IMG/VR virus record: IMGVR_UViG_3300046534_001090
Span: 1-55,000 of that record
Reading direction: 5' to 3' (one strand)
DNA: 55,000 nt
Source of the DNA: a virus
Taxonomy: Duplodnaviria; Caudoviricetes
In this document: piece after piece, positions 590 through 38,800 of the stretch
Layout of the letters: each line of letters opens with the position of its first letter
Numbering within the stretch: position 1 is the stretch's first letter
Position numbers and translations under genes: made by a program
The notes under the pieces: model-generated
What the model was told of the DNA's origin: nothing
What the model saw: only the letters and a program-made list of their open reading frames with translations
Databases searched by the model: none

Positions 590-757
590 TAATTTATGTT
601 GAAAGTGGCGTTGCGTGATAACGCAAGAGCCTAGTGATTATCCGACGCGGAGTAGGGTTCGCCCCCGAAATAAAGCTGATAGATGAATGGAAATCTGAAA
701 ACGGTCTTTACAGGAAAAGGTGACTGTTAGCTACAGCGCCACTTTCAACATAAATTA
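590..757 (+). ncRNA. Putative structured non-coding RNA of unknown class
   Basis: Perfect 21-bp inverted repeat 590-610/737-757 enclosing hairpins 611-626, 641-651, 655-664 (UUCG loop) and a stem 674-682/724-732 with two G-U pairs on the + strand; no ORF of 60 aa or more. Confidence 0.6.
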
Positions 758-794
758 TAGAACAAACCCAGTTAGCCAATAGGAGGCAGTGATT

Positions 795-1457
795 GTGAGC
801 GTTGAAGGAATGAGTTGTTGTGTTGGAAACTTTGATGATTGTGAATATCCCAACTGCAATGAAGGAACAGTAATTGTGAAAGAACGTCCAATTTTATTCA
901 ATGCAGAAATGGTTAATGCTGTTCGAGCTGGTCGAAAAACTCAGACACGCAGGATAGTTAAATCGTGCCCTCACCCCAACACGGAAAGAGTGCAAAACTT
1001 CTATGGTGAAACATGGGACTGGCTGCGCTATGACGGATTAAGGTTAGGCAGTTTCACATGCCCCTATGGAAAAATAGGTGATCAGATTTGGGTTAGGGAA
1101 ACTTTCTCCGAGACTGATTACAGGACCGCATATAGAGCAGATGTTAACGATGGCATCCACTGTATTGTTGAGAAATGGACCCCATCTATCCACATGCCGC
1201 GATCCGCCTCAAGAATTCAGCTAGAAATAACCCGCGTTCGCGTAGAGAGGCTGAATGATATTAGCGAGGAAGATGCTGCCGCCGAAGGGTGTGATAAATC
1301 TAAGTCAGTTGCAGCTAGGACTATTGGTTGGTGTGAAACCCCTCTCAGAGCATTCAACCGCCTATGGAAGCAAATATACGGTGCAGATTCTTGGAACGCT
1401 AACCCTTGGGTTTGGGTGGTCGAATTTAAAAAGATAGAAAACTCAACTAGCCAATAG
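795..1457 (+). CDS. ASCH/PUA-like phage protein
   Basis: KERPILFNAEMVNAVRAGRKTQTRR, WVRETF, WTPSIHMPR and NPWVWVVEF motifs; start either GTG 795 or GTG 876. Confidence 0.8.
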   Translation: MSVEGMSCCVGNFDDCEYPNCNEGTVIVKERPILFNAEMVNAVRAGRKTQTRRIVKSCPHPNTERVQNFYGETWDWLRYDGLRLGSFTCPYGKIGDQIWVRETFSETDYRTAYRADVNDGIHCIVEKWTPSIHMPRSASRIQLEITRVRVERLNDISEEDAAAEGCDKSKSVAARTIGWCETPLRAFNRLWKQIYGADSWNANPWVWVVEFKKIENSTSQ

Positions 1458-1469
1458 GAGGCATTGATT

Positions 1470-1712
1470 GTGAAAAAGTTTGGCCCTACAAATGGATGGA
1501 AGCGTTTAGGCCGTGGTGTATATGAACATACAAATAATGCTCGTATTCACCGGCTTGGGGTTATCAGGCTTCCTGATATGACTTTCATATCCCTTCACTC
1601 ATGTAAAGCAGAATGCCAGCGAGGCAGGCAGCTTATTAAAATCAATGGTGGTAATCGTAAGCGAGGCTTAATGGCTTGGGCTATCGAACTTTCCACCCCA
1701 GTTAGCCAATAG
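1470..1712 (+). CDS. Hypothetical phage protein (cassette gene)
   Basis: GTG 1470 after the repeat SD; ends PVSQ*. Confidence 0.7.
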   Translation: MKKFGPTNGWKRLGRGVYEHTNNARIHRLGVIRLPDMTFISLHSCKAECQRGRQLIKINGGNRKRGLMAWAIELSTPVSQ

Positions 1713-1720
1713 GGGGCAGT

Positions 1721-1945
1721 ATGACAGTTTATATGTACATAAAAATGTTGGGAGTAGTTATCAGCATTACAGGCACACCCTACACAATGGAAGAATGCGT
1801 TAAAAGTCTTCAGGTTTTGAAGCTACCAGTAGAACTTCAAGTAGAAGCGCACTGCTCATACGATACGCCACAGGTATACACACCTACACCAGAGCAGCAG
1901 AAAACAATTGATGATTGGACAGCCCTTCAACCAGTTAGCCAATAG
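1721..1945 (+). CDS. Hypothetical phage protein (cassette gene)
   Basis: ATG directly after the repeat; ends PVSQ*. Confidence 0.65.
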   Translation: MTVYMYIKMLGVVISITGTPYTMEECVKSLQVLKLPVELQVEAHCSYDTPQVYTPTPEQQKTIDDWTALQPVSQ

Positions 1946-1972
1946 GAGGAATAAACAATAAACACCTAAAAC

Positions 1973-2001
1973 TTGTATATTCCCCCAAAAATCAGTAACT
2001 T
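1973..2001 (+). promoter_or_regulatory. Possible sigma70 promoter
   Basis: TTGTAT-17 nt-TAACTT upstream of the 2050 gene. Confidence 0.35.
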
Positions 2002-2049
2002 TAAGAATCTCGAAAGAGTTGCAGTTAATTAAAAAAGAAGGAGTAAGGC

Positions 2050-2379
2050 ATGAAAAAGATCTATTCGTTTTGGGTGTCGATTTTGCTAGGGATGGTACTG
2101 AGTATCAGCGCCCTAGCTGCGTCACCAATTCTAAACCTTGATTCTGACTCGTATCTGTACCGTCTCGACACATCGGCTGATTTGACTCCTGTGCTGCTTG
2201 CACAAGACGAAAGTATTGTCTTTTTGTTGAAAGACTTTGCAGACTTTGATGTTGGCATCCTGACAGAAAGCTACCTTATGGAACCGGCATTTCAAGTGCT
2301 TAAACCGGAAGGTTATTTAACATCTAGCTATCAAACGGCGCCAATCTTCAATTATGAAGTGGCTTGGCGAAGTTTATAG
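2050..2379 (+). CDS. Exported protein with Sec signal peptide
   Basis: MKK, hydrophobic stretch and ALA cleavage motif; AAGGAG SD. Confidence 0.7.
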   Translation: MKKIYSFWVSILLGMVLSISALAASPILNLDSDSYLYRLDTSADLTPVLLAQDESIVFLLKDFADFDVGILTESYLMEPAFQVLKPEGYLTSSYQTAPIFNYEVAWRSL

Positions 2380-2403
2380 GTTAGCTTAACGAGAGAGAAC
2401 AAC

Positions 2404-2432
2404 AAAAGGCCGGCTGATAGTTGGCCTTTTTT
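2404..2432 (+). terminator. Rho-independent terminator, possibly bidirectional
   Basis: AAAAGGCCGGCT-GAT-AGTTGGCCTTTTTT. Confidence 0.8.
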
Positions 2433-2484
2433 GTTAATTTCAACGCACCATAAACCATTTAATAAATTAAAAAGAGTAATGATT

Positions 2485-2979
2485 ATGGCATCAAGAGGCG
2501 TCAACAAAGTTATTTTAGTGGGCAATGTAGGTAACGATCCTGAAGTTCGGTACATGCCTAACGGCAATGCGGTAGCCAACATATCGATTGCTACCAGTGA
2601 AGTATGGAAAGACAAGGAAAATGGCGAGCAGCAAGAAAAAACTGAATGGCACCGGGTAGTCTTCTTCAATCGCCTAGCCGAGATAGTTGAGCAGTACATC
2701 AAGAAAGGCAGCAAGCTCTATATCGAGGGAAGATTGCAAACTAAATCCTATGAAAAGGATGGCCAGAATCATTATTCGACTGAAATAGTTGCCAGCGAAA
2801 TGCAGATGCTTGACACTAAGAGCACTCAAAAACAGGGTGAGTCCTACAATCAGGGATCCCCGGCTAGAGCCGAGAATAAGAAAAATGACTATTCTGCCGC
2901 AAGGGATGGTGATGCAAACAACCAAAGCCAGCCGGCACCAAGTAATTTCGATAACTTTGATGACGATATCCCGTTTTGA
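2485..2979 (+). CDS. ssb: Single-stranded DNA-binding protein
   Basis: [16 protein letters not shown] start, [15 protein letters not shown] and C-terminal DDDIPF; true start ATG 2485. Confidence 0.97.
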
Positions 2980-3125
2980 CGGTTACCCAAAGGTTTGGCT
3001 CCGCTTATTATTTACCATTATTCGGGCTTAGTTACGCGGTTACGAATATTCTAAATACCAGGGGCATTTTATTACTTTTCTCTTATTCGGGATTGATAGA
3101 TTCTCTTTAATAATCATTATGTTGT

Positions 3126-3881
3126 TTGACTATTATGAGCATTGCAATCAATATAACGGGTATTAAAATTAGATGGGCCGGCCTAGTGAATGTTCCAACA
3201 ACTGTAGAAGAATATGCTGGATATCTTTTTGTATCCCTAACTACGTTTTTCTTCACTTGGGTTTTGAATCGAAAGAAAAACGAAGTTAAGAATGAACAGA
3301 TTGAAGAGAAAGATGATGAGATTAGAAATTTGAGAGCTGCCCTTGCTTATCGTGAGGGGAAGTTAGTACCAGTTCTTGATTGGTCAACGCAGGCCCAGAT
3401 AGACCGAAAGATCCAATTACTGAGGATTGATTTAAAAATCGAGAGAACTTTAATGCTATTTGCCTGCAATGGTAAGCAGGAGCCAACTGAAGTATCAAGC
3501 CTATGGATCAGAAACGATCACAACCAGAAAGAGGATAATCATTACAGGGTTACTTTAGATGATGATTACAGGGAAAGGCTGTATCTGATGAAGAAGTACG
3601 GGTATTTTTCTTTTCCTGCTGATGATGTTCCTGAAAACAGTTTGATAGCTGGTGTATATAAGGATCTAGGAGTTAAGCACTCGTTATGGACAATTCTTTA
3701 CTATGACGAAAACGAAAAGCTAGGAATAGCCGGTTATGTCTTTATGTCGTGGGTTAGGTTTGTTGACAATCCATTTACCGAAGAAGACATTCGGAAAGTA
3801 TTAGCAGTAGTTAATTTTAAATCTAGGAAGATGCTTGATAAAAAAGAGAAAGATCTAGCAATCCTCCTATCGAGGCACTAA
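3126..3881 (+). CDS. Membrane protein, putative holin-like lysis protein
   Basis: Single TM segment (YAGYLFVSLTTFFFTWVL), coiled coil and globular C-terminus; TAATG-coupled to the endolysin-like gene; start uncertain. Confidence 0.5.
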   Translation: MTIMSIAINITGIKIRWAGLVNVPTTVEEYAGYLFVSLTTFFFTWVLNRKKNEVKNEQIEEKDDEIRNLRAALAYREGKLVPVLDWSTQAQIDRKIQLLRIDLKIERTLMLFACNGKQEPTEVSSLWIRNDHNQKEDNHYRVTLDDDYRERLYLMKKYGYFSFPADDVPENSLIAGVYKDLGVKHSLWTILYYDENEKLGIAGYVFMSWVRFVDNPFTEEDIRKVLAVVNFKSRKMLDKKEKDLAILLSRH

Positions 3882-9087: not shown

Positions 9088-9134
9088 ATATTACGGTTTA
9101 ACAAGTATTAAATTCAATGCACCAGGAGAAATGT

Positions 9135-9914
9135 ATGAATGATCAAGAAGTAGAAAAAGAAATCGAAGAGAAGGGCTTAAACGCCCCTAGAATCAGCTTA
9201 GAGCACGTAAATTCATTGATATCGATAGTTGAGTATCATGTATTTGCTAACTCTACACTAACAGTCTGCTGCATTACCCTTGATAACGGGTTTACGGTAA
9301 CCGGCGAATCTGCTTGTGCCAGCTATGAGAACTACAACAAGCAACTAGGCGAGAAGATAGCCTATGAAAAGGCCAAGTCTAAGATCTGGATGCTTGAGGG
9401 CTATCTGCTAAAGGATAAACTGCATAACGGGCCTCAAAATGATGAGCCTGTTGATCCAGAGGCTGAATATAAACCCTCCAAACTTAGACGCTCCCCGCTT
9501 AAAGTCGGCCCGACTGCAATTAAACAGCGTTCGCAGAGTATTTATGATGATGTTGGAATGTCAACTATGGCTGCAGACTACTTTACGGATTTCGGCAAGT
9601 TCTTTCCGGAACAGGGATCAAAGCCGACAAAACCCGCTGAAGATAATGTAATGCCATTCGAGCAGACAGCTCTTTGTGTCGATGGTCCTATGCTCGGGGA
9701 TAGAGTTAGTGAATATAGAAAATCTTGGAAAGTCGAAGATGGTAATGGAAATATTGAATACCATTTAGTTCGTTTTATTACTGATGATGGGTTTTGGGTG
9801 GCATGGGCTACAAACAAACATATCAATTTTTTAAAAGCTGTTGCTGGTTTGACTCAAGCTCTTGCTATGCGATCGGGTCGAGATCATAGCGCGGGCTCTC
9901 GGATCAAGAAATGA
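9135..9914 (+). CDS. N4 Gp49/Sf6 Gp66 family protein with long C-terminal extension
   Basis: KGLNAPRI, LTVCCITLDNGFTVTGESAC, ENYNKQLG and KIWMLEGYLLK motifs; AGGAG SD before ATG 9135. Confidence 0.8.
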   Translation: MNDQEVEKEIEEKGLNAPRISLEHVNSLISIVEYHVFANSTLTVCCITLDNGFTVTGESACASYENYNKQLGEKIAYEKAKSKIWMLEGYLLKDKLHNGPQNDEPVDPEAEYKPSKLRRSPLKVGPTAIKQRSQSIYDDVGMSTMAADYFTDFGKFFPEQGSKPTKPAEDNVMPFEQTALCVDGPMLGDRVSEYRKSWKVEDGNGNIEYHLVRFITDDGFWVAWATNKHINFLKAVAGLTQALAMRSGRDHSAGSRIKK

Positions 9915-10234
9915 ATAGGCGTCAATTCATAAAGAAAGCAGCAATAGGGGTGACTGGTGCTATGGTAGCCGGTCCTTCTATTGCGGCTATGTCTGCTGAT
10001 AAAGATCCTTTTTATGAGCTAGATGCCATGATGAAGATTATGATGGATAATCTGTACTATGCTTCTAATCCACCATTGATTGCTGATCATGTTCACGATG
10101 CTATGAAATTCGGGACAGCTATATTCAAGACTCCTGGGACGGCTATATTGAAAACTCATGGGCATAGCCTATCTGTGTATCGATCGAGCGCAAAGATACC
10201 ACTATCAAAGTTCTTGGGTTTAGACGATGAATAG
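9911..10234 (+). CDS. Twin-arginine signal protein with portal-like motifs
   Basis: MNRRQFIK plus h-region and SIAA; ATGA overlap with the upstream gene; MMDN..ASNPPLI and DAMKFGTAIFK segments. Confidence 0.7.
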   Translation: MNRRQFIKKAAIGVTGAMVAGPSIAAMSADKDPFYELDAMMKIMMDNLYYASNPPLIADHVHDAMKFGTAIFKTPGTAILKTHGHSLSVYRSSAKIPLSKFLGLDDE

Positions 10235-10517
10235 GCGTAAATTTCTTTCTATGGCTATACAGGGGGCGGTAGCTGCTATTGCTGCCCCAAGTCTATTGGT
10301 TGCTGAAACCATGTCTGTAGGCGATAACGTCATTACTTTAGAGAATTTAAGAAATATGATTAGAGTTCTTCATGCTAATAAAGCGACTCCAATTACTTAT
10401 CTTGCTCCAATTAGTGGGTTTGTCTTTATAAATTCTTATCTTGAAGAAAACGGTAACTTTTCTGGCGTAGGTTCGCTTGAAATGCCTTGTAGATTTATTG
10501 AGAATAAAAATGAGTAA
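10227..10517 (+). CDS. Twin-arginine signal protein with major-capsid-like segment
   Basis: MNRRKFLS plus h-region; overlaps both neighbours; three blocks colinear with the MCP. Confidence 0.7.
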   Translation: MNRRKFLSMAIQGAVAAIAAPSLLVAETMSVGDNVITLENLRNMIRVLHANKATPITYLAPISGFVFINSYLEENGNFSGVGSLEMPCRFIENKNE

Positions 10518-11217
10518 GCTAATGGATCAGTTGGCATCCATCACTACTAAGAAGCCTACCGTTAAGAAGCCTGCTGCTAAGAAAGCGGTGCCTCGTAAAC
10601 GCAATCCAACCAAACCAGCTGCTAAGAAGCCTGCGCCTAAGACAGTTCCCAAGAAGGCCAAGGTTACCACCAGAACTATCAAGAAGCCTGCACTGCCAAA
10701 GGTAGCTAAACCTGCCCAAGACAAAGCAGAGAAGAATACCGGCTTTAAATTCCCCAAGGGTAACAAATACTGGCATCTTAGGACTAAGACTGGTCGTAAT
10801 TCCAAGTGGGATAATCCTCAACAGCTGTTAGATGACTGCATTAGCTACCTGGAGTGGGTGGATATGAACCCGCTATGGGAAGAGAAGCCATTTTCTTACC
10901 AAGGCGATATTGTTATTGCCAATGTAAATGTTATGCGAGCCGCTACGCTGAATGGATTGCAGATGCACATAGGGATTAGTGATCAAGGATGGCTTAATTA
11001 CAGGGTCAAGCCTGACTTTGTTGGGGTCATAGAGTATGTAGAGAAAGCAATCTATGAGCAAAAGTTCACTGGTGCTGCGGCTAACCTATTGAATGCAAAC
11101 ATAATTTCAAGAGAATTGGGCTTGGCAGACAAAAAAGAGCTTACCGGCGCTGGTGGTGGACCAATAAAAAGCATTACTCGGCAGATAGTTCAGCCCGAGC
11201 AATCTAACAATAATTAA
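10510..11217 (+). CDS. terS: Terminase small subunit (P22 gp3-like) with K/A/P-rich N-terminal extension
   Basis: FPKGNKYW, GRN, YLEWVDMNPLWE and IYEQKFTGAAANLLNANIISRELGLADK match the P22 gp3 pattern. Confidence 0.9.
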   Translation: MSKLMDQLASITTKKPTVKKPAAKKAVPRKRNPTKPAAKKPAPKTVPKKAKVTTRTIKKPALPKVAKPAQDKAEKNTGFKFPKGNKYWHLRTKTGRNSKWDNPQQLLDDCISYLEWVDMNPLWEEKPFSYQGDIVIANVNVMRAATLNGLQMHIGISDQGWLNYRVKPDFVGVIEYVEKAIYEQKFTGAAANLLNANIISRELGLADKKELTGAGGGPIKSITRQIVQPEQSNNN

Positions 11218-11235
11218 AAAATACATGAGGTTTTT

Positions 11236-11610
11236 ATGAGAACAGAATTATTGAAAGAAGCTCAGTTGCCAAGCATCCATAACTTCAGTGACAGAGTTAC
11301 CATTATGCGGGCTGATTACCAACGCTTTGTAAAAAGCTATGGGGCTCTTCTTTATTTCGCCTCAAGGGTGATTGGTATCAAAGAAGACAAAGTTACTGTT
11401 GTAAGTATGGAAACGTTTGAGGTTACAAGATTTAACAATCATAACCGCTACATTGAAAACCTTTCTTTTCCAGTTAGCTCTTACATTGAGGAAATAAACA
11501 AGCTCAAGAAAGAGAACCAAAGACTTAAAACTATTGTTGCTAGAAATTGTTTAGATGAAGATGTTAATGAGGTTAGAAGTAGTAAGAACCTCAATATTGA
11601 CTACCCATGA
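11236..11610 (+). CDS. Hypothetical protein between terS and terL
   Basis: GAGG SD; C-terminal coiled coil. Confidence 0.65.
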   Translation: MRTELLKEAQLPSIHNFSDRVTIMRADYQRFVKSYGALLYFASRVIGIKEDKVTVVSMETFEVTRFNNHNRYIENLSFPVSSYIEEINKLKKENQRLKTIVARNCLDEDVNEVRSSKNLNIDYP

Positions 11611-17236: not shown

Positions 17237-18283
17237 ATGGGTGGTAATACTTTACTAAATCCGGCTCAGAGAGTCGGCGTAACAAAAGGCGCAATACTTA
17301 AGCATGCAGAGCCTAAAGAAGCTCTTGGCATAACTGGCACACTTCACGATATGGCGAAAAATGTCGGTGATACTGTAAAGTATCGCAGATGGTTGCCTTA
17401 TGGTGGATCAACTACCAACGCTAACACTATCAATCGATGGTCGGTTACTGTTGCGGCACACCAGCTGCAAGAAGGCCAAAACCCTGAAGCTGATGGTTTA
17501 GAATCTCAAGATATCACTGTCACTATGCGTGACTACGGTGCTATCTACTACTACACCAACTACGTTGAAGATCTTTACGAAGATGATATCCCGCGCGCCC
17601 AAAAGATGGTCCTTGGTCAGCGTATGGGTCTTGTCCGTGAAATGATTCGATACGGCACGCTGCAAGGCTGTACTAACAAGTTCTATGCAAGCGGCGCCAC
17701 TCGTGCAACTGTTGCCGGTAAGGTCAGTCTAAATGCGCTTCGGGTTATCTCGAAGTCATTGAAGGGCAATCACTGTGAGTTCATCACTGAGGTTCTTAAG
17801 CCTGGTGCTGCTTATGGTACTACTGGTGTCGAGCAATCATTCCTTGTATTTGTTCACACAGATGCAGAGAACGATATTCGTAACCTTCCTGGCTTTAAAG
17901 AAACCATTATTTATGCCAGCGGTAAGCCTATTCACAAGTGCGAAATTGGTTCGGTGGATAATTATCGATTCCTTATGAGCCCTGAACTTAACCCGATTAT
18001 CAATTCGGGTGCTGCTGTTGGTTCAACTGGTTTGTATTCTACTGGTGGTACTAATGTCGATGTATATCCATTCATCGTTGTTGGTGCTGATGCTTGGGGC
18101 GATGTTGCACTCAAGGGTTCCAGAAGTTTTGATTATTCTCACTTGCCTCCTGGCCAGAAAGATAAATCAGATGTTCTGGGTAAACGTGGGTATGTCGGTG
18201 CAAGTTTCTACTCAGCGATGTTCATCCAGAACGATGGATGGATGGCGGTACTAGAAGCCGGTATCACTTCACTTTCTGCTTAA
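17237..18283 (+). CDS. Major capsid protein, N4-gp56 family
   Basis: TVKYRRW, LQEGQNP, EIGSVDNYRF, VDVYP, G.DAWG and DVLGKRGYVG motifs. Confidence 0.92.
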   Translation: MGGNTLLNPAQRVGVTKGAILKHAEPKEALGITGTLHDMAKNVGDTVKYRRWLPYGGSTTNANTINRWSVTVAAHQLQEGQNPEADGLESQDITVTMRDYGAIYYYTNYVEDLYEDDIPRAQKMVLGQRMGLVREMIRYGTLQGCTNKFYASGATRATVAGKVSLNALRVISKSLKGNHCEFITEVLKPGAAYGTTGVEQSFLVFVHTDAENDIRNLPGFKETIIYASGKPIHKCEIGSVDNYRFLMSPELNPIINSGAAVGSTGLYSTGGTNVDVYPFIVVGADAWGDVALKGSRSFDYSHLPPGQKDKSDVLGKRGYVGASFYSAMFIQNDGWMAVLEAGITSLSA

Positions 18284-29138: not shown

Positions 29139-29814
29139 AGGTATCGCTGGTAAATTTCTACGGGGTGTTAATGCTGTAGCTGCTCCTGCTGCTCTTGCAC
29201 AGCAGCAATCCAATATTGAACAGAAGCGCATGCAGATTCTGCAAGGTTATGCACAGCAAAATATGCAGGCCCAGCAAGATTTTAATGTTGCCAGTGATGA
29301 CCGCAGGCAGGGTTATGCTGTTGAGAATCTTGAGACTGCTCAAGGGTATGCAGAAGATAACCGGGCGGCAGATCAAGCATTTAGTAGAGTTGAGAATGCT
29401 GCCGATCGATCCTTGCAAGTCGAAAGAAACGAGATGGCAGGCGAGACTTTAGATATTGAAAGAGATAGATTTGAAATTGCCAAAGAGCAGGCAGTTGTTG
29501 CGCTGGAAAGTGCCGAACTTGGTCTTGCTGACAAGAAGAGGCTTGAGGGTTTATATCAAATTGTTGCAGATGTTAATTCTGCTGAAGAGGCGAGAGATCA
29601 AGCTGCAGAAGCTATTAATCAACTTACCGGGAAAGGTGGTAATGAAAGCTATAGCGCAATAACGGCATTTAGTGAGCCTAATGAATATGGCGAGCAAACC
29701 AAGGCTGCGGGTGTTCTCAATAGAAGAACTGGCGAACAAGAGTGGATATCCCCAAGTTATGGCAATAACCAAGATGATGATCCTTTAGGTATACGGTCGA
29801 GAATCAGAAAATAA
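29131..29814 (+). CDS. Internal virion (ejection) protein
   Basis: Gln/Ala-rich helical protein, TAATG-coupled to the giant gene. Confidence 0.65.
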   Translation: MARGIAGKFLRGVNAVAAPAALAQQQSNIEQKRMQILQGYAQQNMQAQQDFNVASDDRRQGYAVENLETAQGYAEDNRAADQAFSRVENAADRSLQVERNEMAGETLDIERDRFEIAKEQAVVALESAELGLADKKRLEGLYQIVADVNSAEEARDQAAEAINQLTGKGGNESYSAITAFSEPNEYGEQTKAAGVLNRRTGEQEWISPSYGNNQDDDPLGIRSRIRK

Positions 29815-32800
29815 TGACATTAGAAGAAATCCGGCAGAAGTATCCTCAGTATGCTGATCTGAGTGATCAGGTACTTGCGGATTCCTTGTATGAAAGCTCT
29901 TACTCAGATATTGAACGTCCTGAGTTTGATTCCCTTGTGGGTTTTCAGGCTAAACCTGATGCTCCTAATGCCAGCATTATTGATACCGCTCTTGATTATG
30001 GTATCGATTTTTCATCCGGCGCTGTTAGCTTGGGCGAATCGGTTGTTGGTATTGGTGATCTGCTAACAGGGAACTTAGTTGGCAAAGGTCTATCTTCTAT
30101 TGGCTATGACCCTGAAAAGACTAGAGAAATACTCAAGTCAGGCTATAGCCCTGAAAGAAAGCAGCAACTAGAAGAAGTTCAAGCTGCTGAAGGCTTTCTT
30201 AATACTGTTATTGCAGCAATTCAAAATCCCGGTGTGGCCATTGGCACAATCATTGAATCAACTCCTTATTTGCTAGGTAGTGCTGCACTGGTTAGATCTG
30301 CCGGCACTTCAATGCTGGCAAGCAAAGGCATAACGCCTGGAACAAAAGCCGCACAGATATTCTTTAAAGACCCCAAAGTTCTGACTAAGTTGGCTACTAT
30401 CGGCGCCATTAGTGAAGGAGCTATGGCCGCGGGCAGCATCCAAGAACAGGCAAGGCAGGAAGGGCAGGGCTATTTTGATTCAGCTGGCTATGCTCTTGCG
30501 GCGGGAGCCGGCACAGCTCTTATAGGCAGGCTTGCATCCAGAATACCGGGCTTTGGTGATTTGGAAACCACTGTTGGTACTGCCGGCTTAGGTGCAGGCG
30601 AAGGGTTTACTACCGGCAGACTCAAACAAGCCATTATGGATATCGGCAAGGGTGCTATTCAAGAAGGTGTGCTCGAGGAATTACCTCAGTCTGCACAAGA
30701 GCAAGTATTCAGTAACCTAGCACTTGATAAGCCATGGAATGAGAACGTGCCTGAAGCTGCTGCCATGGGCTTGATAGCCGGTGCCGGCATGGGTGGTGGT
30801 GTAGGTATTATCCGCACTGCTATGCGTAGAAAAGATATCGAAGAAACAATTGCAGGGATTACCGACCCTGATAAATCAATCGATGACGCTATCTCAGAAG
30901 CTGATCAGATCCTTCAGGGTAATGAGGTTGAGTTTAACGCGGCTATTGAATCATCTGCTATTGAGTCTCAGGCCAAAGAGCGAAGCGATATCATTCAAGA
31001 TATCCAAAACCAGATAGCCGAAGCTGACAAGAAAATTGAGAAGGCCCGCGGTGATAGAAGCCAATCTGATATTGATACGGCCACTACTGAAAGGCAGGGA
31101 TTAAGGTCAGAGCTATCGAACATGATAGGCATGGACCTTGATACAACTTTTAACCCTACTGTTAGCAACATGGAAGCTACTCTTATTCCGGGCGAGCAGA
31201 TACCTGGCATTGATATAGTTAGACAGGCACTAGGTCTTGAGATAGAAACAGATCAGCAGTCTCAGGCCCGTCTAGATGGCACTCTTGGCAATGTAGACTT
31301 TACCCCTACTGCTAACACCGATTTATCAATAGCTCCACGTGAAACCGCAGAGGATACGGGAGGCATAGACTTTGAGCGCCCCGAGATAACTACTAGCAGG
31401 CTAGAGCCTAGCGCAAATATACAAACCAGCCCTATTGAATCTGTTGACTTCAAAACAACGGATCTTGCTATTGAGACTAACGATCAGGCTAATAGCCGGT
31501 TATCTTCCAATAATACAACCGTAGACTTCCAGCCTAGCAAGACTTCCAGCATGGAGTTAGCGCCTAAAACCGCTCCTACCACTGGCAGTATCGACTTTGT
31601 TCGGCCAGAAAGGACTACAAGCCAATTAGATGGTGCCGAAACACAGCGCCCCGGCGAGCAGATACCTTCCGTTGATTTTGAAAGGCCAACTGCTTTATCT
31701 ACTACCGATATTCCCGCTACAAATCAGGATGCTACTACCAGCGCCCCAGCTGTCGATTACAATCCAGATAGACTACCTCTTGTTAAAAGCGATGGGACCG
31801 CATTTAAAACAGAAAAATCGGCCACTATGTCAAAGCAGTTTAAATCTGTACCTGGTGCGACTGTTATTCCTGTAGACGGTGGTTTTGCTGTTAAGCCTCC
31901 TACCGCCGAGCAAGTTCAGGCTACTAAAGATCAAGCTGCTGAAGCTGACAAGGCTTCTACCGAACTATCCACAAAGATTAGAGGTATTGTAGGGCGATCA
32001 GAAAAGCTAAGCGATGCAAGAACCGCTGTTGCTCGAGAGCTTGGCAATGAAGTTACTCAGCAGCAAGAACAGAATATCAAGTCTTACTGGAATCAGGATC
32101 AGCAAAAAGCCCGTAAACAGATTAAGGAAAGCGATTCACTAGCTGTTGCAATAGCGAAGCTAGGCGGCATTGATATGAGCTACCGCGAGGATATGACTCG
32201 CGATACTACTGAAAACAAGATGGTTCCCGGTGTCGGCGCCATGTTTAACAAGAAAGGTACTAGCCCTGATGATATGGCTACTGCCTTGCTGCAGTACAAC
32301 TACCTTACTCAGTCTGAAATTGATAACGCGATGGATAACGGGGGTGTTAATGCGCTTGCCGATCTAATCAATGAAGAGCTTGCTGGCGGGAAGAAGCGGT
32401 ATCAGGTTGGATCTGCTTTTGAGCAAGAGCAGATGAATGCTGAAATTGATGCCGAGTACCTTGAACAGAAACAAATTGTTGAAGAAGATCGTGACGATGT
32501 ATATTCTGAGATTGCTGCCGAATACGGCCAAGAAATAGCTGACCAGGCTAGGGTTTATGATCAAGATACTGAAGACTATGTTTATACGCTAGAATCTGAC
32601 CTTGATTCTCAGATGGAATCTCAAATTCAACAGGAGAGGGATTTAGAAAATGAAACAATCAACCAAGACGCGGCAGAGGCCAGCACCACCACCAGTGATG
32701 AGTCCATTGGGCAAACTGCTGACCAACAGAGCGGATTCGCTAGAACAGAGGATCAAAACGCTCAAGAAGAAGACTTCCAGCTAGGCCAGCAATCAGATGC

Positions 32801-35800
32801 TGATATCTTGGCTCAAGAGCGCGCGCAGAAAGCTGCTGACGATACCGCCAAAAAAGCTGAAGAAAAGCAAAAGGCTGACGATGAGTTAGGTGATTTTAAT
32901 CTTGCCGGCTCAAATTCGGCGGTAGACCAGGCTGAATCTCGCGGCCAAGGCAATATGTTCGATGCCATGGGCCGGGCTCCTGTCTCTGATACTGAGGCAG
33001 AGGTTCAAAGACTAACTAAGCAAGTAAACAAAGGCGAAGGAACAGATCAGCTTAGAGCTAAAGCCGGTGGTGAGTTTGGCCCTAATGGGGAGTGGTATGA
33101 AGGTGGTAAGTTTATCGCTACTACAAACCTTCCTAAAAGAATGCAAGTGTGGCTAAAAAACGCTACTAGAAATACAGAAGTTCTTACCGAGTTTGCGACT
33201 GACGATACCCCTGCCAAAAAATCTATTCCTCGTATTGGTCAATTCCCGATTGTTTCTGGCATTGCTGATGCTTATGGGGCGTTTGGTCCTCAGGGGAAAA
33301 CAAGCGATGGCCGCGAAGAGTGGATGAGAGAAAACTATAGCCCGGATCTTTATGCTGAAATAGTGAAAGCCAGGGATTTGTATATCAGTGGCGATAGATG
33401 GGTAAGCGTGCTTGATTTTCCTCTTTCTGCCAATGTATCCGATCTATCTCGAATGATTGTCAACGATATTGCTGTGCCAGAAGAGGCAATAATTAACAGG
33501 GACCAGAAAGTTCAAGACAATATTCGCGCTGTGCAGAAAGCGTATGAAAATGAGTTTTCAGATATTGTCACCACTCCCGCCGAAACATCTAGCGCCGAAT
33601 TAGTAGATGCTGATATCTTTGAAGCTATAGATAATGCCGCAGATTACAACAAGAAATTAGAAAATAGCTACGTAGAGCGCAATTTCTCAGACCAGATTTC
33701 TGCTGAATTCTTAAAAATTCGCACTAGGACAAAGCGCAACGAATGGTTAGACGATAATCTAACCGGCGACCAAGAAAATGAATTGCAGGATTTGTATAAT
33801 TTAGATGAGGATAGGCTTAACGAATTGTCTCAATACGTGGGTCAGTTTGATGATAGCTCCCCGCAAGCCATGGGAAAAAGCATTGCCTTGTGGTTTAAAG
33901 ATGTTGATTCTAAAAATTTCAAAGATACCCCGCAATACGCTGGAATTCTTAGTGCGCTAGAGTTTGCGAAATCAAAAAACTGGGACTTAAATACGGTAAT
34001 GGTTGGCGCTACTGATCGAATTAATGAGTGGGCTGGTAGCGATGCGGCTGAATTATTCCCTAGATTCTTCGGGCAAGATGCCGACAATACCCGCACCATA
34101 GAGCAGGTCCAGCTTGAATATCAAGCTGTAGAGGTTCTTAACGGCGATGATATGACTGAGTCTCGCCTTGAACAACAAGATACCTTGAGAGAGGAAGCTA
34201 AGGATCTACAGGTAGAAAAAGCTCAATCCATGCTTGATGAGGGCAAGGTTCCTGTATTTCAGGAAGGTGATCTTTATTACACAATTACCCCTTCTACCAG
34301 ATCACAAGGCAAGTACCAGCTTACTACCTACAATAAGACTGGTGCGCTTGGTGACACTACCCTTAATTCCCTTGAAGCAATCAATCGAGAACTTCAGTTA
34401 GCCTCGGCTACCATATTGCCAGAATCAGAAGCTGATAAGGTTATGGGCGATATAGCGATTGCTGAAGGTGAGTTTCAGGAGAGAAGAACTAAATCACAAG
34501 AGCAGGCGAATGATCCTGCCAGTCAAGCTATCTCACAATTTACCACTGCCATTAAGGATCTCACTGATCAATTAAAGGCTCCTGCTGCTACGGGTCAAGC
34601 TACTCAAACTGTTGCCGAACCAGATGTAAAATCAACTCCATTAAGTCAAGCCGATGAACAAGTTTCTAAAATACCTGATGGCGACTTGCCTATTGATGAG
34701 TTTAAGGCGGCTTTTGAATTCGTTGTTGAAAACAAGGAAGCTATTAAAACTGAACTTAGCAGTAGTATGACTAAGGCTCAATTGCTAGACAGACTAGGCG
34801 CTTACGAATCCTCTCGCTATAAAAATGAAAAAAAGTCGATGGTTGTATCTACTGTTTTTGACGATATTTTAAGCGACTTCTTGGCGCCCACTGCTGGCGA
34901 ATCTGGAATGATTAGCTACTCTATTGGCATGGGCGGTGATGCTACTCAATCTAAGAGGAATAAGATAAATGCGCTTACTCAGGAAGATTTAGATAACCAT
35001 GCTACTCGCATAGAGCAAAGCAGGAAAGACCGCGCCAAAGCTCTTGAGGAAAAAGAAGAAGGCATTGAAAACCCTGAAAGTATTCAGGACTATGAAAATT
35101 TACTTAATAAGCTTGCTCGTGAAAATGAAGTAAAAACCTTTGCTGAGGCTCGTAACTTACTACCGTTAGATCAGCGTATGGAATTTGATGTGTTAAAGGC
35201 CGCTGAATCAAGAGGTAAGCGCGTTGATAATAAGGATGCAGAAAAAACAAGACTTCAAACTTCGGATATAGCTCAAGTTGGTGAAATTATTGAAACTACT
35301 CACACCAAGAAAGGCTATGACCTTTTTGTTATTCAGCTCGAAGACCGTATTGAAAAGGAAGAATATCAAAAACTAAATGCGTCTGCTAAAAAACTGGGCG
35401 GTCGTTACTCATCGTTTAGAGGGAGTGGGGCTATACCAGGCTTTACTTTTACTGAGCGTGATAATGCTGAAGCATTTCAAAAGCTGGTTGGTGGTGATAC
35501 TGATCAAGCGCAAGAAGTCGCGCAGGCCCGTAGGGATGAGTTTAAAGATGATAAGTCACAGTCTGCTGTCGAGCGCCTTAGAACTATGGCAGATTCCCTT
35601 GAAGAAAGAGCTAATACGTCATTAAATCAAGACAGAAAAGAAAATACGGCTCGCAGGGCAGGGATGGCAGCTAGTGCTACTGCTAAAGCTGAAGCTGAAA
35701 TTGCTATGGCTCAAACCATGAATAATATTGCCAACTCTATTGAGTCTGGTGATGCTCAATTTTTAGATCAAGTTAGAACTAAAACCCAAGTAGAAATGCT

Positions 35801-38800
35801 GGATTCTTTTATTCATATTGCCAAAAGTGAACAGGCGTATGAAATGTTCCCCGGCGATTACACTAAACAGCAAAATTTTAAATACTCAGAGCCAACAGCC
35901 GAAACAGCTGAGAAAGCGGTTTTCCCTGCTTACGTTGCTTGGAGGTCTGATCTAGCCAAGTTAGGAAGACAGCTCCAAGAAATACCAGGCACTAAGCGCA
36001 TGGGCGACAATCTAATAAAAGTTGCTGATGATGTTAGTTCTCAATATACAAAATGGGCAAAAGATAATTTAATCGAAGCATCTGTGTTTAAAAAAGCTGA
36101 TGGTTCTTTAGCGGCATTTTCTACAAAGAAAGCCGCTCTAGCTTCTATATATGTTTCTGGGTTTAGCGGGCAGGCCATTCCATTCCAGGTCAAAAGAGGT
36201 GAGCATGTTATAGTTTTGAGCCCTTCTGAAGCTCAAAAAAGGGGAATATGGGAAGGCCAAGAGGATAAAAAAATATCCTTGTCCAAAGATTTTTCAAGCG
36301 AGCTAATTACAAAGTTAAATCGCAAGTCGGTTGATGTTCCTTGGATACTTGATTCTGCTCACGCCAAACGCAAGCGGCTTTCTGCGATGAACATTGAAAC
36401 CCCTGCTGAATTTAGATCGATGATGCAAGAATACATTGCAAGCAAGTCTCAAGCCAAAGAGCCAAACAAAATCAAGGAACTTGAGAGGGCTATGGTTGGG
36501 CGCCGTAATGATGGTTTAGATTTTTTCCCAACTCCTGCTCTTGTTGCTGGCGAAATGATTGATGCTGCTGGCATTGAAGAGGGAATGACAGTTTTAGAGC
36601 CTTCTGCGGGCATGGGTCATATCGCAGACCAGGTACGCCAAGCAGGTTTCGAGCCTGACGTTGTTGAAATATCTGGCGATAGACGAGAACTGTTAGAAGC
36701 TAAGGGTTATAACGTAATCGATACAGATTTTCTTGAGACTACGGATAAGTATGATCGCATAATAATGAATCCTCCTTTTTCTGACCGCAGGGATTTTGAG
36801 CATGTTCAACACGCCTATTCTCTGCTCAACGAAAATGGTCGCTTAGTTGCCATTGTTGGTGAAGGTGTTTTTTTTGGCAGTGACAAGAAAGCAAAAGAAT
36901 TTAGAGACTGGTTTGAATCTACTGGTGGTACTGATGAGAAATTAGCAGAAGGTACTTTTCAAGATCCGTCTTTGCCAGTAACAACTGGTGTTAATGCCCG
37001 CATGATCGTAATAGACAAATCTTCTGATGAAGATGTTCTATTTAGCGATGATGATATCCTTCAAATATCCAAACTTCAGGCAGATCCTGATGTTAGAGGA
37101 TTAAAGGTAGAGAAGATCAGGGGGTCACTAGCCCCGGCTCTTGCGAATCTAAATCAGATAGATGGCTTTGATGTAGAGATACTTCAATCGGTTGGTGATC
37201 TTCCACCAGGCGCGTTAAACCAGACTGACAAGAATGGCCGGTACAAAGGCGCATTCTACCAAGGCAAGGTGTATCTATTCGCTGATAACCTGAATAGCCG
37301 GCGCGATGCCGAGACTACACTCGCGCATGAGCTGGTAGGCCATAAAGGGGTGCTTGTTGGCGCCACTGCTGAAGAGTGGTCAGGCATTAAGAAAGATATA
37401 AATAACCTTCTAAAATTGAAGAATGCTACTGCTGTAGATATTGCCAGTGAGACTAACCGCAGATACAAGAATTTAAAGCAAGGCAGTGAAAACTGGAATA
37501 AAGAATTTCTGGCCATTGCTGCCGAGCGTAGATCATTGCGCGGCACTTTAAAAGATATGGTAGAGCGGGTTAAGGCCATTGTTCGCAGATACATGAAAGA
37601 GCTTGGCTTTAAAGGTCCGTTCGCTGAATCAGATATCGAATCAATACTTCAAAACTCTGAGCAGAATCTTCGCAATCGTAGGGGTGATCCTAGAGCTAAT
37701 CCTAATGACTCATTTTTGGGTGTTAGTGATTTACCAATGGACACAGAATCGCGACTACAGAGAGCCAGGGATATGGGCTTTGATACAGATACTGTTTATT
37801 ACCATAAATCAAAAAACGACTTTGAGGAATTTTCTAGGGACGCTGAATCAGGCTGGACGATCGACAAGAAAACAAATGGGATTTATTTCGCCAGCGATCG
37901 TGATTATGTAAATATGTATTCTGGAACTACTGTTTACCCTACATATTTAAAGAAGGGAGCAAGGATTAAAGACGTTAGCTCTAACTTGGAGCTATCAGAT
38001 CAGCACAAAGAAACCAGAAAGGCTGAACAAGACGGATTTACGGCTGTAAGAATTACAGACAATTCTTTGGGTGAGTTTATTGTTTTTGACCCTTCCCAGA
38101 TACGCTCAGTCAACGCAGAGTTTGATCCAGATTTCTCAGATAGCGGCAATATCTTAATGAGCCAGGAAGAGCCCGATAGCGCATTAAAAGAAATAGCTGA
38201 TCGAGTATTGGCTAAAACTAATCGGGGATCCTTTGCAAACACTTTAAAGCAGTCTATTGAAGACCATAAGGACAATTGGCAATCAACTATGCGAAGAGGT
38301 TTGGTTGATGAGTACCAGTCTATCGCTGACCTTGAAACAGCCCAATATGGGGAGCTTAGGGATGCCACAGATTCGGCATACAAAGCGGCTACTTTCAGCA
38401 AGAAAAGTGGAACAGTATTAGATTCGGTTATGACCTATGGTGCGCCAGTGTATAAGGATGGCGGCATAGAGATTGATGAAAGCATGCCAGGTCTAGTTAA
38501 AATCTTTGAGCCCTTGGCTATGCGCGGGATGGTTCGAGAATGGGAATTGTGGGCCGGTGCTGTTAGAGCTAAGAGGCTAATGGCTGAAGGCCGCGAAAAC
38601 CTATACACGCAAAAAGATATCGATACTATTCTTGGGTCTGTTACCGGCAAGAAGTTAGAGCTGTATCAAAAGATTCAGCGTAACTGGACCGCATTTAATA
38701 AGCGCATGCTAGATTTTTCTGAAGCAGCTGGCCTGATCAATCCTGAAGAGCGACAACTATGGGAAAGTGATGATTATGTGCCTTTCCATCGCATATCAGA

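What the first reader, a model, noticed from the sequence alone, without database searches (positions are those of the whole stretch)
10227..10517. Tat-signal protein B is a loop-deleted, colinear miniature of part of the major capsid protein
Three blocks align in order with the MCP (nt ~17723-17974): ITLENLRNMIRVLHANKATPIT vs VSLNALRVISKSLKGNHCEFIT (7/22 identical, gapless, hydrophobic pattern kept); GFVFINSYLE vs FLVFVHTDAE; VGSLEMPCRFI vs IGSVDNYRFL. The loops between the blocks are largely removed. The divergence argues against a recent duplication, and retention of only core elements suggests selection for a compact capsid-domain mimic (inference).
Basis: partly seen in the sequence, partly recalled or inferred. 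Interest (0 to 1): 0.85.

Follow-up and report, generated by a model that had tools for sequence, protein, structure and literature searches.

The report
Export-tagged mini-protein with capsid-like helix
A small, optional phage gene joins a bacterial export-type leader to a short stretch that resembles a conserved helix of the capsid proteins of its phage group; its function is unknown.

Summary
B (10227-10517) is a real, optional 96-codon gene. It has a Tat-type leader shared with neighbour A, followed by a ~70-residue cargo.

Against MCP FAMILY profiles, block 1 is clearly non-random. B residues 32-61 match the conserved helix segment at MCP 159-189.
- Three separate samples of the family give 9.5-14.1 bits.
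- B ranks 1 of 5161 real phage-protein pieces, and 0 of 20000 shuffles reach its score.
- In a blind six-frame scan of the window, B is the only frame besides the MCP that stands out.

Block 3 is weakly echoed and block 2 is not. The tail reaches only P 0.03-0.18. No fold could be predicted (pLDDT 41).

B is missing as an exact 283-nt cassette from a relative that is ~88-92% identical in the flanks. It has no homologues elsewhere.

My reading: an export-leader-tagged mini-protein carrying a capsid-family segment in the consensus version, not the phage's own version. Function is untested.

The scan has noted the same design before on other DNA. Those notes are unchecked AI notes. My three literature searches (listings only) showed no description.

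The parts
10227..10517 (+). Gene B: 96 codons, leader plus cargo
   Evidence: ORF, translation. Its ATG overlaps the stop of A, and its stop overlaps the ATG of the small terminase gene. The codon-usage score in frame is 0.429 per codon. That is higher than 49 of 53 other genes of the window, and 0 of 106 off-frame controls reach it.
10227..10304 (+). Tat-type leader of B (residues 1-26): N-R-R-K-F-L, then an Ala/Gly-rich hydrophobic stretch
   Evidence: TIGR01409 scores 13.6 bits, below the 16.7 cut-off. It is 11/24 identical to the leader of A, BLASTP E=3e-4. 16 of the first 17 nt are shared with A. 0 of 1000 shuffles reach the leader-leader score. The cleavage site is inferred only.
10320..10409 (+). 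Capsid-like segment of the cargo (B residues 32-61), matching MCP family positions 159-189
   Evidence: figures are in the observation check. The best single MCP is P0070, Smith-Waterman score 67. B's low-confidence model puts a helix at 38-50, which under this alignment falls on MCP helix 165-177.
10410..10499 (+). Tail of the cargo, with weak colinear echoes of MCP family invariants: B 62-71 against MCP 217-226, 81-85 against 237-241, 89-91 against 244-246
   Evidence: Chaining test gives P about 0.03 at gap costs 4 and 6, and 0.10-0.18 at gap cost 2. Chain printed. HMMER alone sees nothing here: rank 4246 of 10330 against the whole model and 321 of 10330 against the sub-model.
10227..10509 (+). 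283-nt presence/absence cassette, running from B's ATG to the base before the small terminase ATG
   Evidence: In run X9, a 1050-nt contig joins 10230 to 10549. The 35 letters between re-create the start of the small terminase gene. A therefore runs straight into the terminase gene with the same overlap design (tables 5, 5c, 8). B is present in contigs of X2, X3 and X7 (table 8).
9911..10234 (+). Gene A: 107 codons, second Tat-type leader protein, directly upstream of B
   Evidence: TIGR01409 scores 19.2 bits and 20.8 bits in the six-frame search, both over the cut-off. Only close relatives exist, at 69-95% identity, with a swapped middle segment. A weak portal-motif match is described under Noticed in passing.
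17711..17803 (+). The segment of the phage's own MCP (residues 159-189) that corresponds to B 32-61
   Evidence: The MCP matches phrog_1357 at 1.3e-54, and sources name relatives 'N4-gp56 family major capsid protein'. The model shows helix 165-177 with block pLDDT 88-93. The own version shares only 7 of 27 residues with B.
10510..11217 (+). Small terminase subunit gene, directly downstream of B
   Evidence: phrog_606 at 2.3e-43 and PF16677 at 2.6e-19.

Best explanation
B is a real accessory gene restricted to one narrow phage lineage.

Shown:
- It is coding.
- It is translationally coupled into the operon gp49-like gene, A, B, small terminase.
- It comes and goes between close relatives as an exact start-codon-to-start-codon cassette.
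- Its first ~26 residues are a twin-arginine-type leader related to the leader of neighbour A.
- Cargo residues 32-61 reproduce, in the family-consensus version, the conserved helix-plus-flanks segment (positions 159-189) of N4-gp56-family capsid proteins.

Inferred:
- This segment descends from a capsid gene of that family. The source was either another phage or an old state, not the present own gene.
- The rest of the cargo may keep faint colinear traces of the same domain.
- The leader takes the protein to the host Tat system. The cargo then ends up outside the cytoplasm, or anchored in the inner membrane.
- Most likely mechanism, held at low confidence: it presents a free copy of a conserved capsid element to something that recognises or binds that element. 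It would act as a decoy or competitor, or as an exclusion factor in the envelope. It does not build capsids.
For: Gene reality:
- Codon-usage score 0.429 per codon, above 49 of 53 genes; 0 of 106 off-frame controls reach it.
- Start and stop overlaps on both sides.
- Exact 283-nt cassette polymorphism.

Leader:
- RR-x-F-L motif and hydrophobic stretch.
- Likeness to A's leader, E=3e-4.
- A passes the TIGR01409 cut-off.

Capsid-like segment:
- hhalign P=1.4e-3 with 41 MCPs, improving to 2.1e-4 with 204.
- HMMER 9.5 and 10.3 bits, rank 1 of 5161 real pieces.
- An HMM made only from IMG/VR loci gives 10.8 bits, rank 1, best null 9.4.
- An HMM of 7 distant named-phage MCPs gives 14.1 bits (i-Evalue 8.7e-7 for one comparison), rank 1 of 5161, next 8.3. 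0 of 20000 shuffles reach it, and reversed B is not reported.
- Best-of-121 Smith-Waterman score 67; 0 of 1500 shuffles reach it.

Specificity:
- Of HMMs for 10 structural families, only the MCP puts B first. The others rank it 672-3262 or do not report it.
- Best-of-family Smith-Waterman P is 1.6e-3 for the MCP and 0.047-0.90 for the other nine.
- Blind six-frame scan: B is second only to the MCP.
- Among 1772 small ORFs of about 110 phage loci, B ranks 1 with the distant HMM. It ranks 2 with the 204-sequence HMM, and the one ORF above it itself carries an MCP motif.

Lead only:
- The ESM Atlas feature search with the cargo returns, as nearest named clusters, 81-92-residue proteins. In these clusters 14-36% of members carry PF17236 (SU10 capsid), or 82% carry PF20911 (capsid GP7). 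The score is 0.77, below the tool's noise line.
Against: - There is no likeness to the phage's own MCP beyond chance.
A look-elsewhere factor of up to about 100 applies, and I tried three HMMs.
- The established match is only about 30 residues of an amphipathic helix with flanks.
- One unrelated piece reaches nearly the same level on two measures. Residues ~490-560 of the 3654-residue ORF score hhalign 26.3 against B's 27.3, and best-of-family Smith-Waterman 65 against 67. It does not do so in HMMER.
- One of 113 shuffles reached hhalign 28.1 against B's 30.6.
- Pfam, PHROGs (including the MCP's own phrog_1357), NCBIfam, PADLOC and PDB sequences give no capsid hit for B.
- PF17236 and PF20911 hit nothing in this genome, not even the MCP.
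- No fold is available.
- B has no homologues outside a cluster of more than 90% identity. A donor lineage is therefore unseen.
- 80 loci (921 kb) of phages with this MCP type hold no convincing Tat-leader small ORF. Four related records have no TIGR01409 hit.
- B's own leader is under the TIGR01409 cut-off. 2 of the 5 cluster members were called from Met9, without the RR motif.
- Export and function are wholly untested.
Confidence: 0.55

Rival explanations
1. One reading: the whole cargo is a colinear, loop-deleted miniature of the MCP A-domain. It would fold as a compact capsid-domain mimic kept by selection.
For: - Block 1 is established.
- The tail chains colinearly onto MCP family invariants F220, Y226, G238, R244 and F245. 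Its score is better than 96-97% of real pieces and of shuffles at gap costs 4 and 6, and well above the upstream control region, 21.3 against 11.9.
- hhalign's greedy alignment is colinear too.
- The blocks lie on core elements of the MCP model.
Against: - The tail signal is weak: P 0.03-0.18 depending on gap cost, and 0.16-0.33 in the earlier test.
- HMMER reports no second domain.
- The implied deletion removes a core strand and a helix, not loops.
- B's low-confidence model is all-helical, with no strands.
- No selection test was possible.
Confidence: 0.15
2. Chance: B is an unrelated orphan secreted protein, and the helix match is the tail of the noise picked out by a reader who was looking for self-matches.
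For: - The pair was chosen after the fact among about 54 proteins.
- The pairwise tests are null.
- One unrelated piece nearly equals B on two measures.
- The shuffle tail for hhalign is heavy: 28.1 in 113 shuffles.
- All public family libraries are silent.
Against: - The score rises as more, and more distant, MCPs are used: 9.5, then 10.3 and 10.8, then 14.1 bits. This is expected for a match to conserved family positions.
- 0 of 20000 shuffles reach B's score, and B ranks 1 of 5161 with a 5.8-bit margin.
- In the blind window scan B has a 10-bit margin over the next frame.
- Extrapolating the shuffle tail gives roughly 1e-6 to 5e-6 per comparison. That is my inference. It leaves about 1e-3 after a factor of 100 for choice and 3 for models.
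Confidence: 0.15
3. Convergence: the segment evolved independently to resemble the capsid helix, or both share a generic helix-cap motif. There is no descent from a capsid gene.
For: There is no nucleotide likeness to any MCP gene. The match covers only one secondary-structure element.
Against: The shared positions include polar and capping residues as well as the hydrophobic face. They also extend past the helix into the following loop, up to the L-A-P stretch.
Confidence: 0.08
4. B is not a working gene. It would be a decaying remnant, or a young proto-gene, made when A's start region was duplicated in front of the terminase gene.
For: - B is dispensable in a close relative.
- It has no homologues elsewhere.
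- Its first 17 nt nearly repeat A's start.
- No fold is predicted.
Against: - The in-frame codon-usage signal is strong.
- The frame is intact in every full-length copy on record, with at most one residue changed.
- The coupling architecture is precise on both sides.
Confidence: 0.07

Closest known systems
N4-gp56-family major capsid proteins (HK97 fold; phrog_1357). Solved relatives are named 'Major capsid protein' in PDB entries 9d7z, 9e99, 9d82 and 9bgn.
   Same: B residues 32-61 match the family's conserved helix segment at positions 159-189, including near-invariant L168, L175, N178 and T184. There are weak colinear echoes of F220, Y226, G238, R244 and F245.
   Different: B has about 70 cargo residues against about 350 in an MCP. 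It matches no capsid profile above any inclusion threshold. It lacks most of the domain, carries an export-type leader, and is optional. That N4 gp56 has the HK97 fold is recalled knowledge, not tested here.
Twin-arginine (Tat) signal peptides (TIGR01409)
   Same: B has an N-terminal R-R-x-F-L motif followed by a mildly hydrophobic Ala/Gly-rich stretch. Neighbour A passes the curated cut-off.
   Different: B scores 13.6 bits against a 16.7 cut-off. There is no basic residue before the presumed cleavage site (sequence). The cargo is tiny and has no known cofactor. Export is untested.
Tat 'hitchhiker' small subunits, such as hydrogenase-2 HybO carrying HybC (recalled, from no call)
   Same: A small leader-bearing protein could carry a leaderless folded partner across the membrane. 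A cargo that copies a capsid contact element could in principle bind a partner.
   Different: No partner is known, and I ran no binding test. This is a functional analogy only.
Phage T4 Gol peptide and the Lit protease (recalled, from no call)
   Same: It is a precedent that a short internal stretch of a major capsid protein can be what a host system recognises. A free copy of such a stretch could therefore matter.
   Different: Gol is part of the capsid protein itself and acts in the cytoplasm. B is a separate gene with an export-type leader, and no sensor is known here.
This scan's earlier notes of 'Tat-type leader plus pieces of the phage's own capsid, portal or terminase' on other genomes. 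These are unchecked AI notes.
   Same: The design is the same: a leader, a small optional gene, and a cargo resembling a conserved piece of a structural protein. Neighbour A weakly resembles a portal motif.
   Different: Here the likeness is to the family consensus rather than to the phage's own copy. B also has no sequence relatives, so membership in their 'large family' could not be tested.

Membership tests
N4-gp56-family major capsid protein (HK97 fold) | Match to the family profile over most of its length, above an inclusion threshold | tested here: not met
   PHROGs gives B no family at E<=1, while the MCP hits phrog_1357 at 1.3e-54. My own HMMs align only 27-29 residues, at 9.5-14.1 bits.
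N4-gp56-family major capsid protein (HK97 fold) | Conserved helix segment (family positions 159-189) | tested here: met
   Rank 1 of 5161 real pieces with three HMMs, and 0 of 20000 shuffles as high. The blind window scan puts B second to the MCP.
N4-gp56-family major capsid protein (HK97 fold) | Downstream invariant residues in the same order (F220, Y226, G238, R244, F245) | tested here: inconclusive
   The chain is found, but P is 0.03-0.18, and 0.16-0.33. HMMER sees nothing. Near-invariant H207, T208 and D209 have no counterpart in B.
N4-gp56-family major capsid protein (HK97 fold) | A-domain-type fold | tested here: inconclusive
   AlphaFold2 on the single sequence gives pLDDT 41.3. The Atlas model is at 0.35. 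Foldseek against viral models returns 38 matches, all with E>=1.9, and none is named as a capsid protein.
Tat signal peptide (TIGR01409) | Twin-arginine motif followed by a hydrophobic stretch at the N-terminus | tested here: met
   Read from the sequence. With my strict motif filter, B is the only ORF of the window that passes.
Tat signal peptide (TIGR01409) | Score at or above the curated cut-off of 16.7 bits | tested here: not met
   B scores 13.6 bits, E=0.067. A scores 19.2 bits and 20.8 bits.
Tat signal peptide (TIGR01409) | Tat-dependent export | not testable with these tools
   Needs a reporter fusion in tat-plus and tat-minus cells.
Phage accessory ('moron'-like) orphan gene | Present or absent between close relatives without disturbing neighbouring genes | tested here: met
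   An exact 283-nt cassette is missing in a contig of run X9 and present in X2, X3 and X7. It is also absent upstream of the small terminase gene of a relative whose MCP is 86% identical.
The scan's undescribed 'leader-tagged structural-protein fragment' genes | Cargo significantly like the phage's OWN structural protein | tested here: not met
   Own-MCP comparisons are at chance. The likeness is to the family.
The scan's undescribed 'leader-tagged structural-protein fragment' genes | Sequence kinship with other members | not testable with these tools
   The notes give no sequences. B has only relatives of more than 90% identity.

The most novel reading that the evidence does not exclude
A and B would be two members of an undescribed class of phage genes. 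Each joins a Tat-type export leader to a short, conserved piece of a virion protein: a portal motif in A, a capsid helix in B. The pieces are exchanged as start-codon-to-start-codon cassettes next to the packaging genes. Once exported or membrane-anchored, they would act as decoys or competitors for whatever recognises those conserved virion elements.
Probability: 0.4. Interest if true: 0.8.

Novelty: categorically new. Interest (0 to 1): 0.6.

Why it matters
If the reading holds, a phage makes a separate, probably exported mini-protein out of a conserved element of a capsid protein. That is a use of capsid sequence outside capsid building. None of my three literature searches showed it in their listings.

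It would give a concrete, small, testable object, about 70 residues, with natural plus and minus variants. Two questions become testable: what recognises conserved capsid elements in or around the cell, and why phages would use the folded-protein exporter.

Method point: the pairwise comparison with the phage's own protein was blind to the signal. Only family profiles revealed it, and distant family members revealed it best.

This instance is a weak one. Only about 30 residues match, B has no relatives, and there is no fold. It mainly adds to a pattern that the scan has noted on other DNA.

Tried and rejected
- Pairwise tests against the own MCP were at chance: BLASTP, Smith-Waterman, loop-tolerant gap costs, best ungapped segment, and rank among 54 proteins. 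Searches reversed that for block 1.
- Family libraries gave no informative hit for B: Pfam, PHROGs, NCBIfam, PADLOC.
- Homologue searches returned only B's own cluster of more than 90% identity. In the 1.84-billion-representative search, the one extra hit was P0009, a 1957-residue protein of repeated units, at E=1.6e-4 summed over 4 stretches. I set it aside as repeat inflation.
- tblastn against phage records found nothing. The IMG/VR scan with B found nothing.
- B's AlphaFold2 model (pLDDT 41.3) and its Foldseek search are too poor to use. The Atlas search with the whole protein gave nothing, score 0.80. phmmer of the cargo against PDB gave 0 hits at E<=10. PF17236 and PF20911 gave 0 hits in the own genome.
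- Relatives fetched through the small terminase (1 locus), the large terminase (17 loci), the portal (5 loci) and the MCP (80 loci) hold no A or B homologue. The best phmmer E-values were 0.54-1.2.
- They also hold no convincing RR-leader small ORF. There were 2 antisense candidates, none, and 9 unconvincing candidates.
- dN/dS could not be done. Only one residue varies, and 116 of the DNA differences were not listed.
- No RNA holder was listed among the sequencing runs.
- Complex prediction was not sent, because I claim no binding. Supplements of papers were not consulted.
- Papers: I saw only search listings and four 'phage' passages of PMC13673990. None concerned phage-encoded Tat cargos.
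Full report
WHAT IS AT THE COORDINATES

The window is a whole virus record: 55000 bp, linear, estimated 91% complete, 43.8% G+C. Runs that hold this stretch are labelled ice and marine metagenomes.

B is the ORF 10227-10517, 96 residues. It lies in a same-strand run of genes:
- a gp49-like protein (PF13876);
- A (9911-10234);
- B;
- the small terminase subunit (ATG at 10510; phrog_606, PF16677);
- the large terminase subunit;
- an SU10-type portal.

The capsid protein (MCP) is 17237-18283. It matches phrog_1357 at 1.3e-54. Sources name its relatives 'N4-gp56 family major capsid protein'. Its family profile finds four solved 'Major capsid protein' chains at E 1e-19 to 3e-14.

The 3654-residue ORF carries a polyvalent-protein domain, LPD38 at 6e-42. 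I therefore do not call this an N4-like phage in the polymerase sense.

B IS A REAL, OPTIONAL GENE

- B's ATG overlaps A's stop, and its stop overlaps the terminase ATG.
- A codon model trained on the other genes gives B 0.429 per codon in frame. That is above 49 of 53 genes, and 0 of 106 off-frame readings reach it.
- Contigs of four public runs were laid on 9100-11300. B is present in X2, X3 and X7.
- In X9, a 1050-nt contig joins 10230 to 10549. The 35 letters between re-create the terminase start.
- The net loss is 283 nt, exactly B's ATG to the base before the terminase ATG. The flanks are about 88-92% identical.
- A relative with an 86% identical MCP lacks both A and B.
- B has only relatives of more than 90% identity: 5 cluster members with one S/N change. 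Nothing else turned up among 1.84 billion representatives except a repeat-inflated hit.

THE LEADER

- B starts with M-N-R-R-K-F-L, followed by an Ala/Gly-rich hydrophobic stretch.
- A starts almost identically: 11/24 residues, E=3e-4, and 16 of the first 17 nt.
- 0 of 1000 shuffles reach the leader-leader score. The two mature parts show nothing.
- TIGR01409 scores A at 19.2 and 20.8 bits, over the 16.7 cut-off. B scores 13.6, under it.
- Two of the five cluster members were called from Met9, without the motif. That may be a gene-caller's choice.
- Export is inferred, not shown.

The strings and counts are right, but the comparison is at chance:
- BLASTP best E=2.7, elsewhere in the protein.
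- Smith-Waterman score 24, against 27.7 +/- 4.5 in 1000 shuffles.
- Loop-tolerant costs give z 0.5-1.1, and the best ungapped segment scores 24 against 26.5.
- The MCP ranks 42nd of 54 window proteins.
- There is no nucleotide likeness.

THE FAMILY LEVEL REVERSES THIS FOR BLOCK 1

- At first I discounted it. Among 206 real pieces of other window proteins, one scored 26.3 against B's 27.3, although 286 further pieces reached only 20.6.
- I then found that B is much closer to other family members than to the own MCP. Identities over 27 columns are 7 for the own MCP, with a median of 9 and a maximum of 13 among 121.
- The seven MCPs at least 80% identical to the own one score lowest, median 28 against about 40 for the rest.
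- Best-of-121 Smith-Waterman is 67, with 0 of 1500 shuffles and 0 of 380 window pieces as high. One piece reached 65.
- With 204 MCPs, hhalign gives P=2.1e-4 and probability 46%. One of 113 shuffles reached 28.1 against B's 30.6.
- HMMER gives 9.5 and 10.3 bits, rank 1 of 5161 real 70-residue pieces. These pieces came from ORFs of at least 150 residues in about 100 phage loci, with 84 MCP-like ORFs removed. They are partly redundant, so the effective number is smaller.

As a replication I built an HMM from only seven distant MCPs of named phages, 21-32% identical to the own MCP (identities; records fetched).
- B scored higher still: 14.1 bits, at the same helix, rank 1 of 5161 with the next at 8.3.
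- 0 of 20000 shuffles reached it (maximum 10.7), and reversed B was not reported.

Specificity:
- Of HMMs for ten structural families, only the MCP puts B first.
- Best-of-family Smith-Waterman P is 1.6e-3 for the MCP and 0.047-0.90 for the other nine.
- In a blind scan of all 506 open frames of the window with the seven-sequence HMM, the MCP scores 210.5 bits, B 14.1, and the next frame 3.6.
- Among 1772 small ORFs, B is first with that HMM and second with the 204-sequence HMM. The ORF above it is itself an 81-residue ORF with an MCP motif.

THE REST OF THE CARGO

- HMMER sees nothing in residues 60-96: rank 4246 of 10330 against the whole model and 321 of 10330 against the downstream sub-model.
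- An averaged-profile test gave 16-33% of shuffles as good.
- Chaining on HMM log-odds with free-length gaps gave 3-4% at gap costs 4 and 6, and 10-18% at gap cost 2. An upstream control region scored well below.
- The best chain is B 62-71 on MCP 217-226, B 81-85 on 237-241, and B 89-91 on 244-246.

In my MCP model (pLDDT 76.9):
- block 1 is helix 165-177;
- 202-206 is a strand;
- 208-215 is a helix;
- 236-247 is a hairpin.

The implied deletions would remove core elements, not only loops.

B's own model is unusable (pLDDT 41.3). Its helix at 38-50 does coincide with the MCP helix under the alignment.

OTHER LEADS

- The Atlas feature search with the cargo alone returned small-protein clusters with capsid Pfam families as the nearest named clusters. 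These were PF17236 in 14-36% of members and PF20911 in 82%. The score was only 0.77, below the tool's noise line, and I had no call left for controls. Those two families hit nothing in this genome.
It scores 3.3 bits against a 65-portal HMM, with 1 of 10000 shuffles as high, and ranks 15 of 4550 real pieces.

CONTEXT FROM THE SCAN

After my first negative reading, look-ups showed a dozen earlier follow-ups on other genomes. They describe Tat-type leaders joined to pieces of capsid, portal or terminase proteins.

These are unchecked AI notes. I did not count them as evidence, but they made me test the family level. My own searches of 80 loci of this MCP type found no further leader-tagged ORF.

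READING

B is best described as a leader-tagged mini-protein with a capsid-family helix segment in its consensus form.

- Origin from a capsid gene of another phage, or from an old state, is inferred.
- A donor lineage is unseen.
- Function is unknown.
- I favour a decoy or competitor role for the exported or anchored cargo, with low confidence.

Noticed in passing
window 9911-10234 (gene A): A's cargo weakly matches a conserved portal motif. A's H-V-H-D-A-M-K-F-G-T-A-I-F-K-T-P stretch falls on portal HMM positions 214-230. It scores 3.3 bits, with 1 of 10000 shuffles as high, and ranks 15 of 4550 real pieces. The second copy of the 8-residue tandem repeat that follows is a 24-nt indel, missing in runs X2, X3 and X7. 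Residues 32-50 are swapped for other sequence in two relatives.
   Followed up: partly
window 29814-40778, residues ~490-560 of the 3654-residue ORF: This piece resembles MCP family positions 153-216, right next to B's segment. It scores hhalign 26.3 and best-of-family Smith-Waterman 65, and includes an L-x-P-S-A-N...T-S-P-I-E stretch. HMMER does not rank it high. It may be chance or another capsid-like piece; this is unexplained.
   Followed up: partly
window 29814-40778: The giant ORF carries LPD38 (6e-42) and weak methyltransferase matches. It is therefore a polyvalent protein rather than an N4-type virion RNA polymerase.
   Followed up: partly
L042:3905-4150 (+), IMG/VR phage with the same MCP type: An 81-residue ORF lies just downstream of that phage's large terminase gene and 6 kb upstream of its MCP. 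It carries the MCP family's V-F-x-R-W-L-P-Y-G motif: 14.5 bits, i-Evalue 6.5e-7, HMM positions 37-61. It has no RR leader. It may be another capsid-fragment ORF or a gene remnant.
   Followed up: partly
window 17711-17803 (own MCP residues 159-189): The phage's own lineage has diverged from the family consensus in this helix. It shares 7 of 27 residues with B, against a family median of 9 and a maximum of 13. The 7 MCPs at least 80% identical to the own one all score lowest.
   Followed up: yes
window 9417-9547, 9475-9517 and 9874-9895 (3' half of the gp49-like gene 9117-9914): Relatives differ here by replacements and indels: a 129-nt skip with 27 other letters in X9, a 41-nt stretch replaced by 89 letters in X3 and X7, and a 22-nt deletion. 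The C-terminal half of this gene is mosaic.
   Followed up: no
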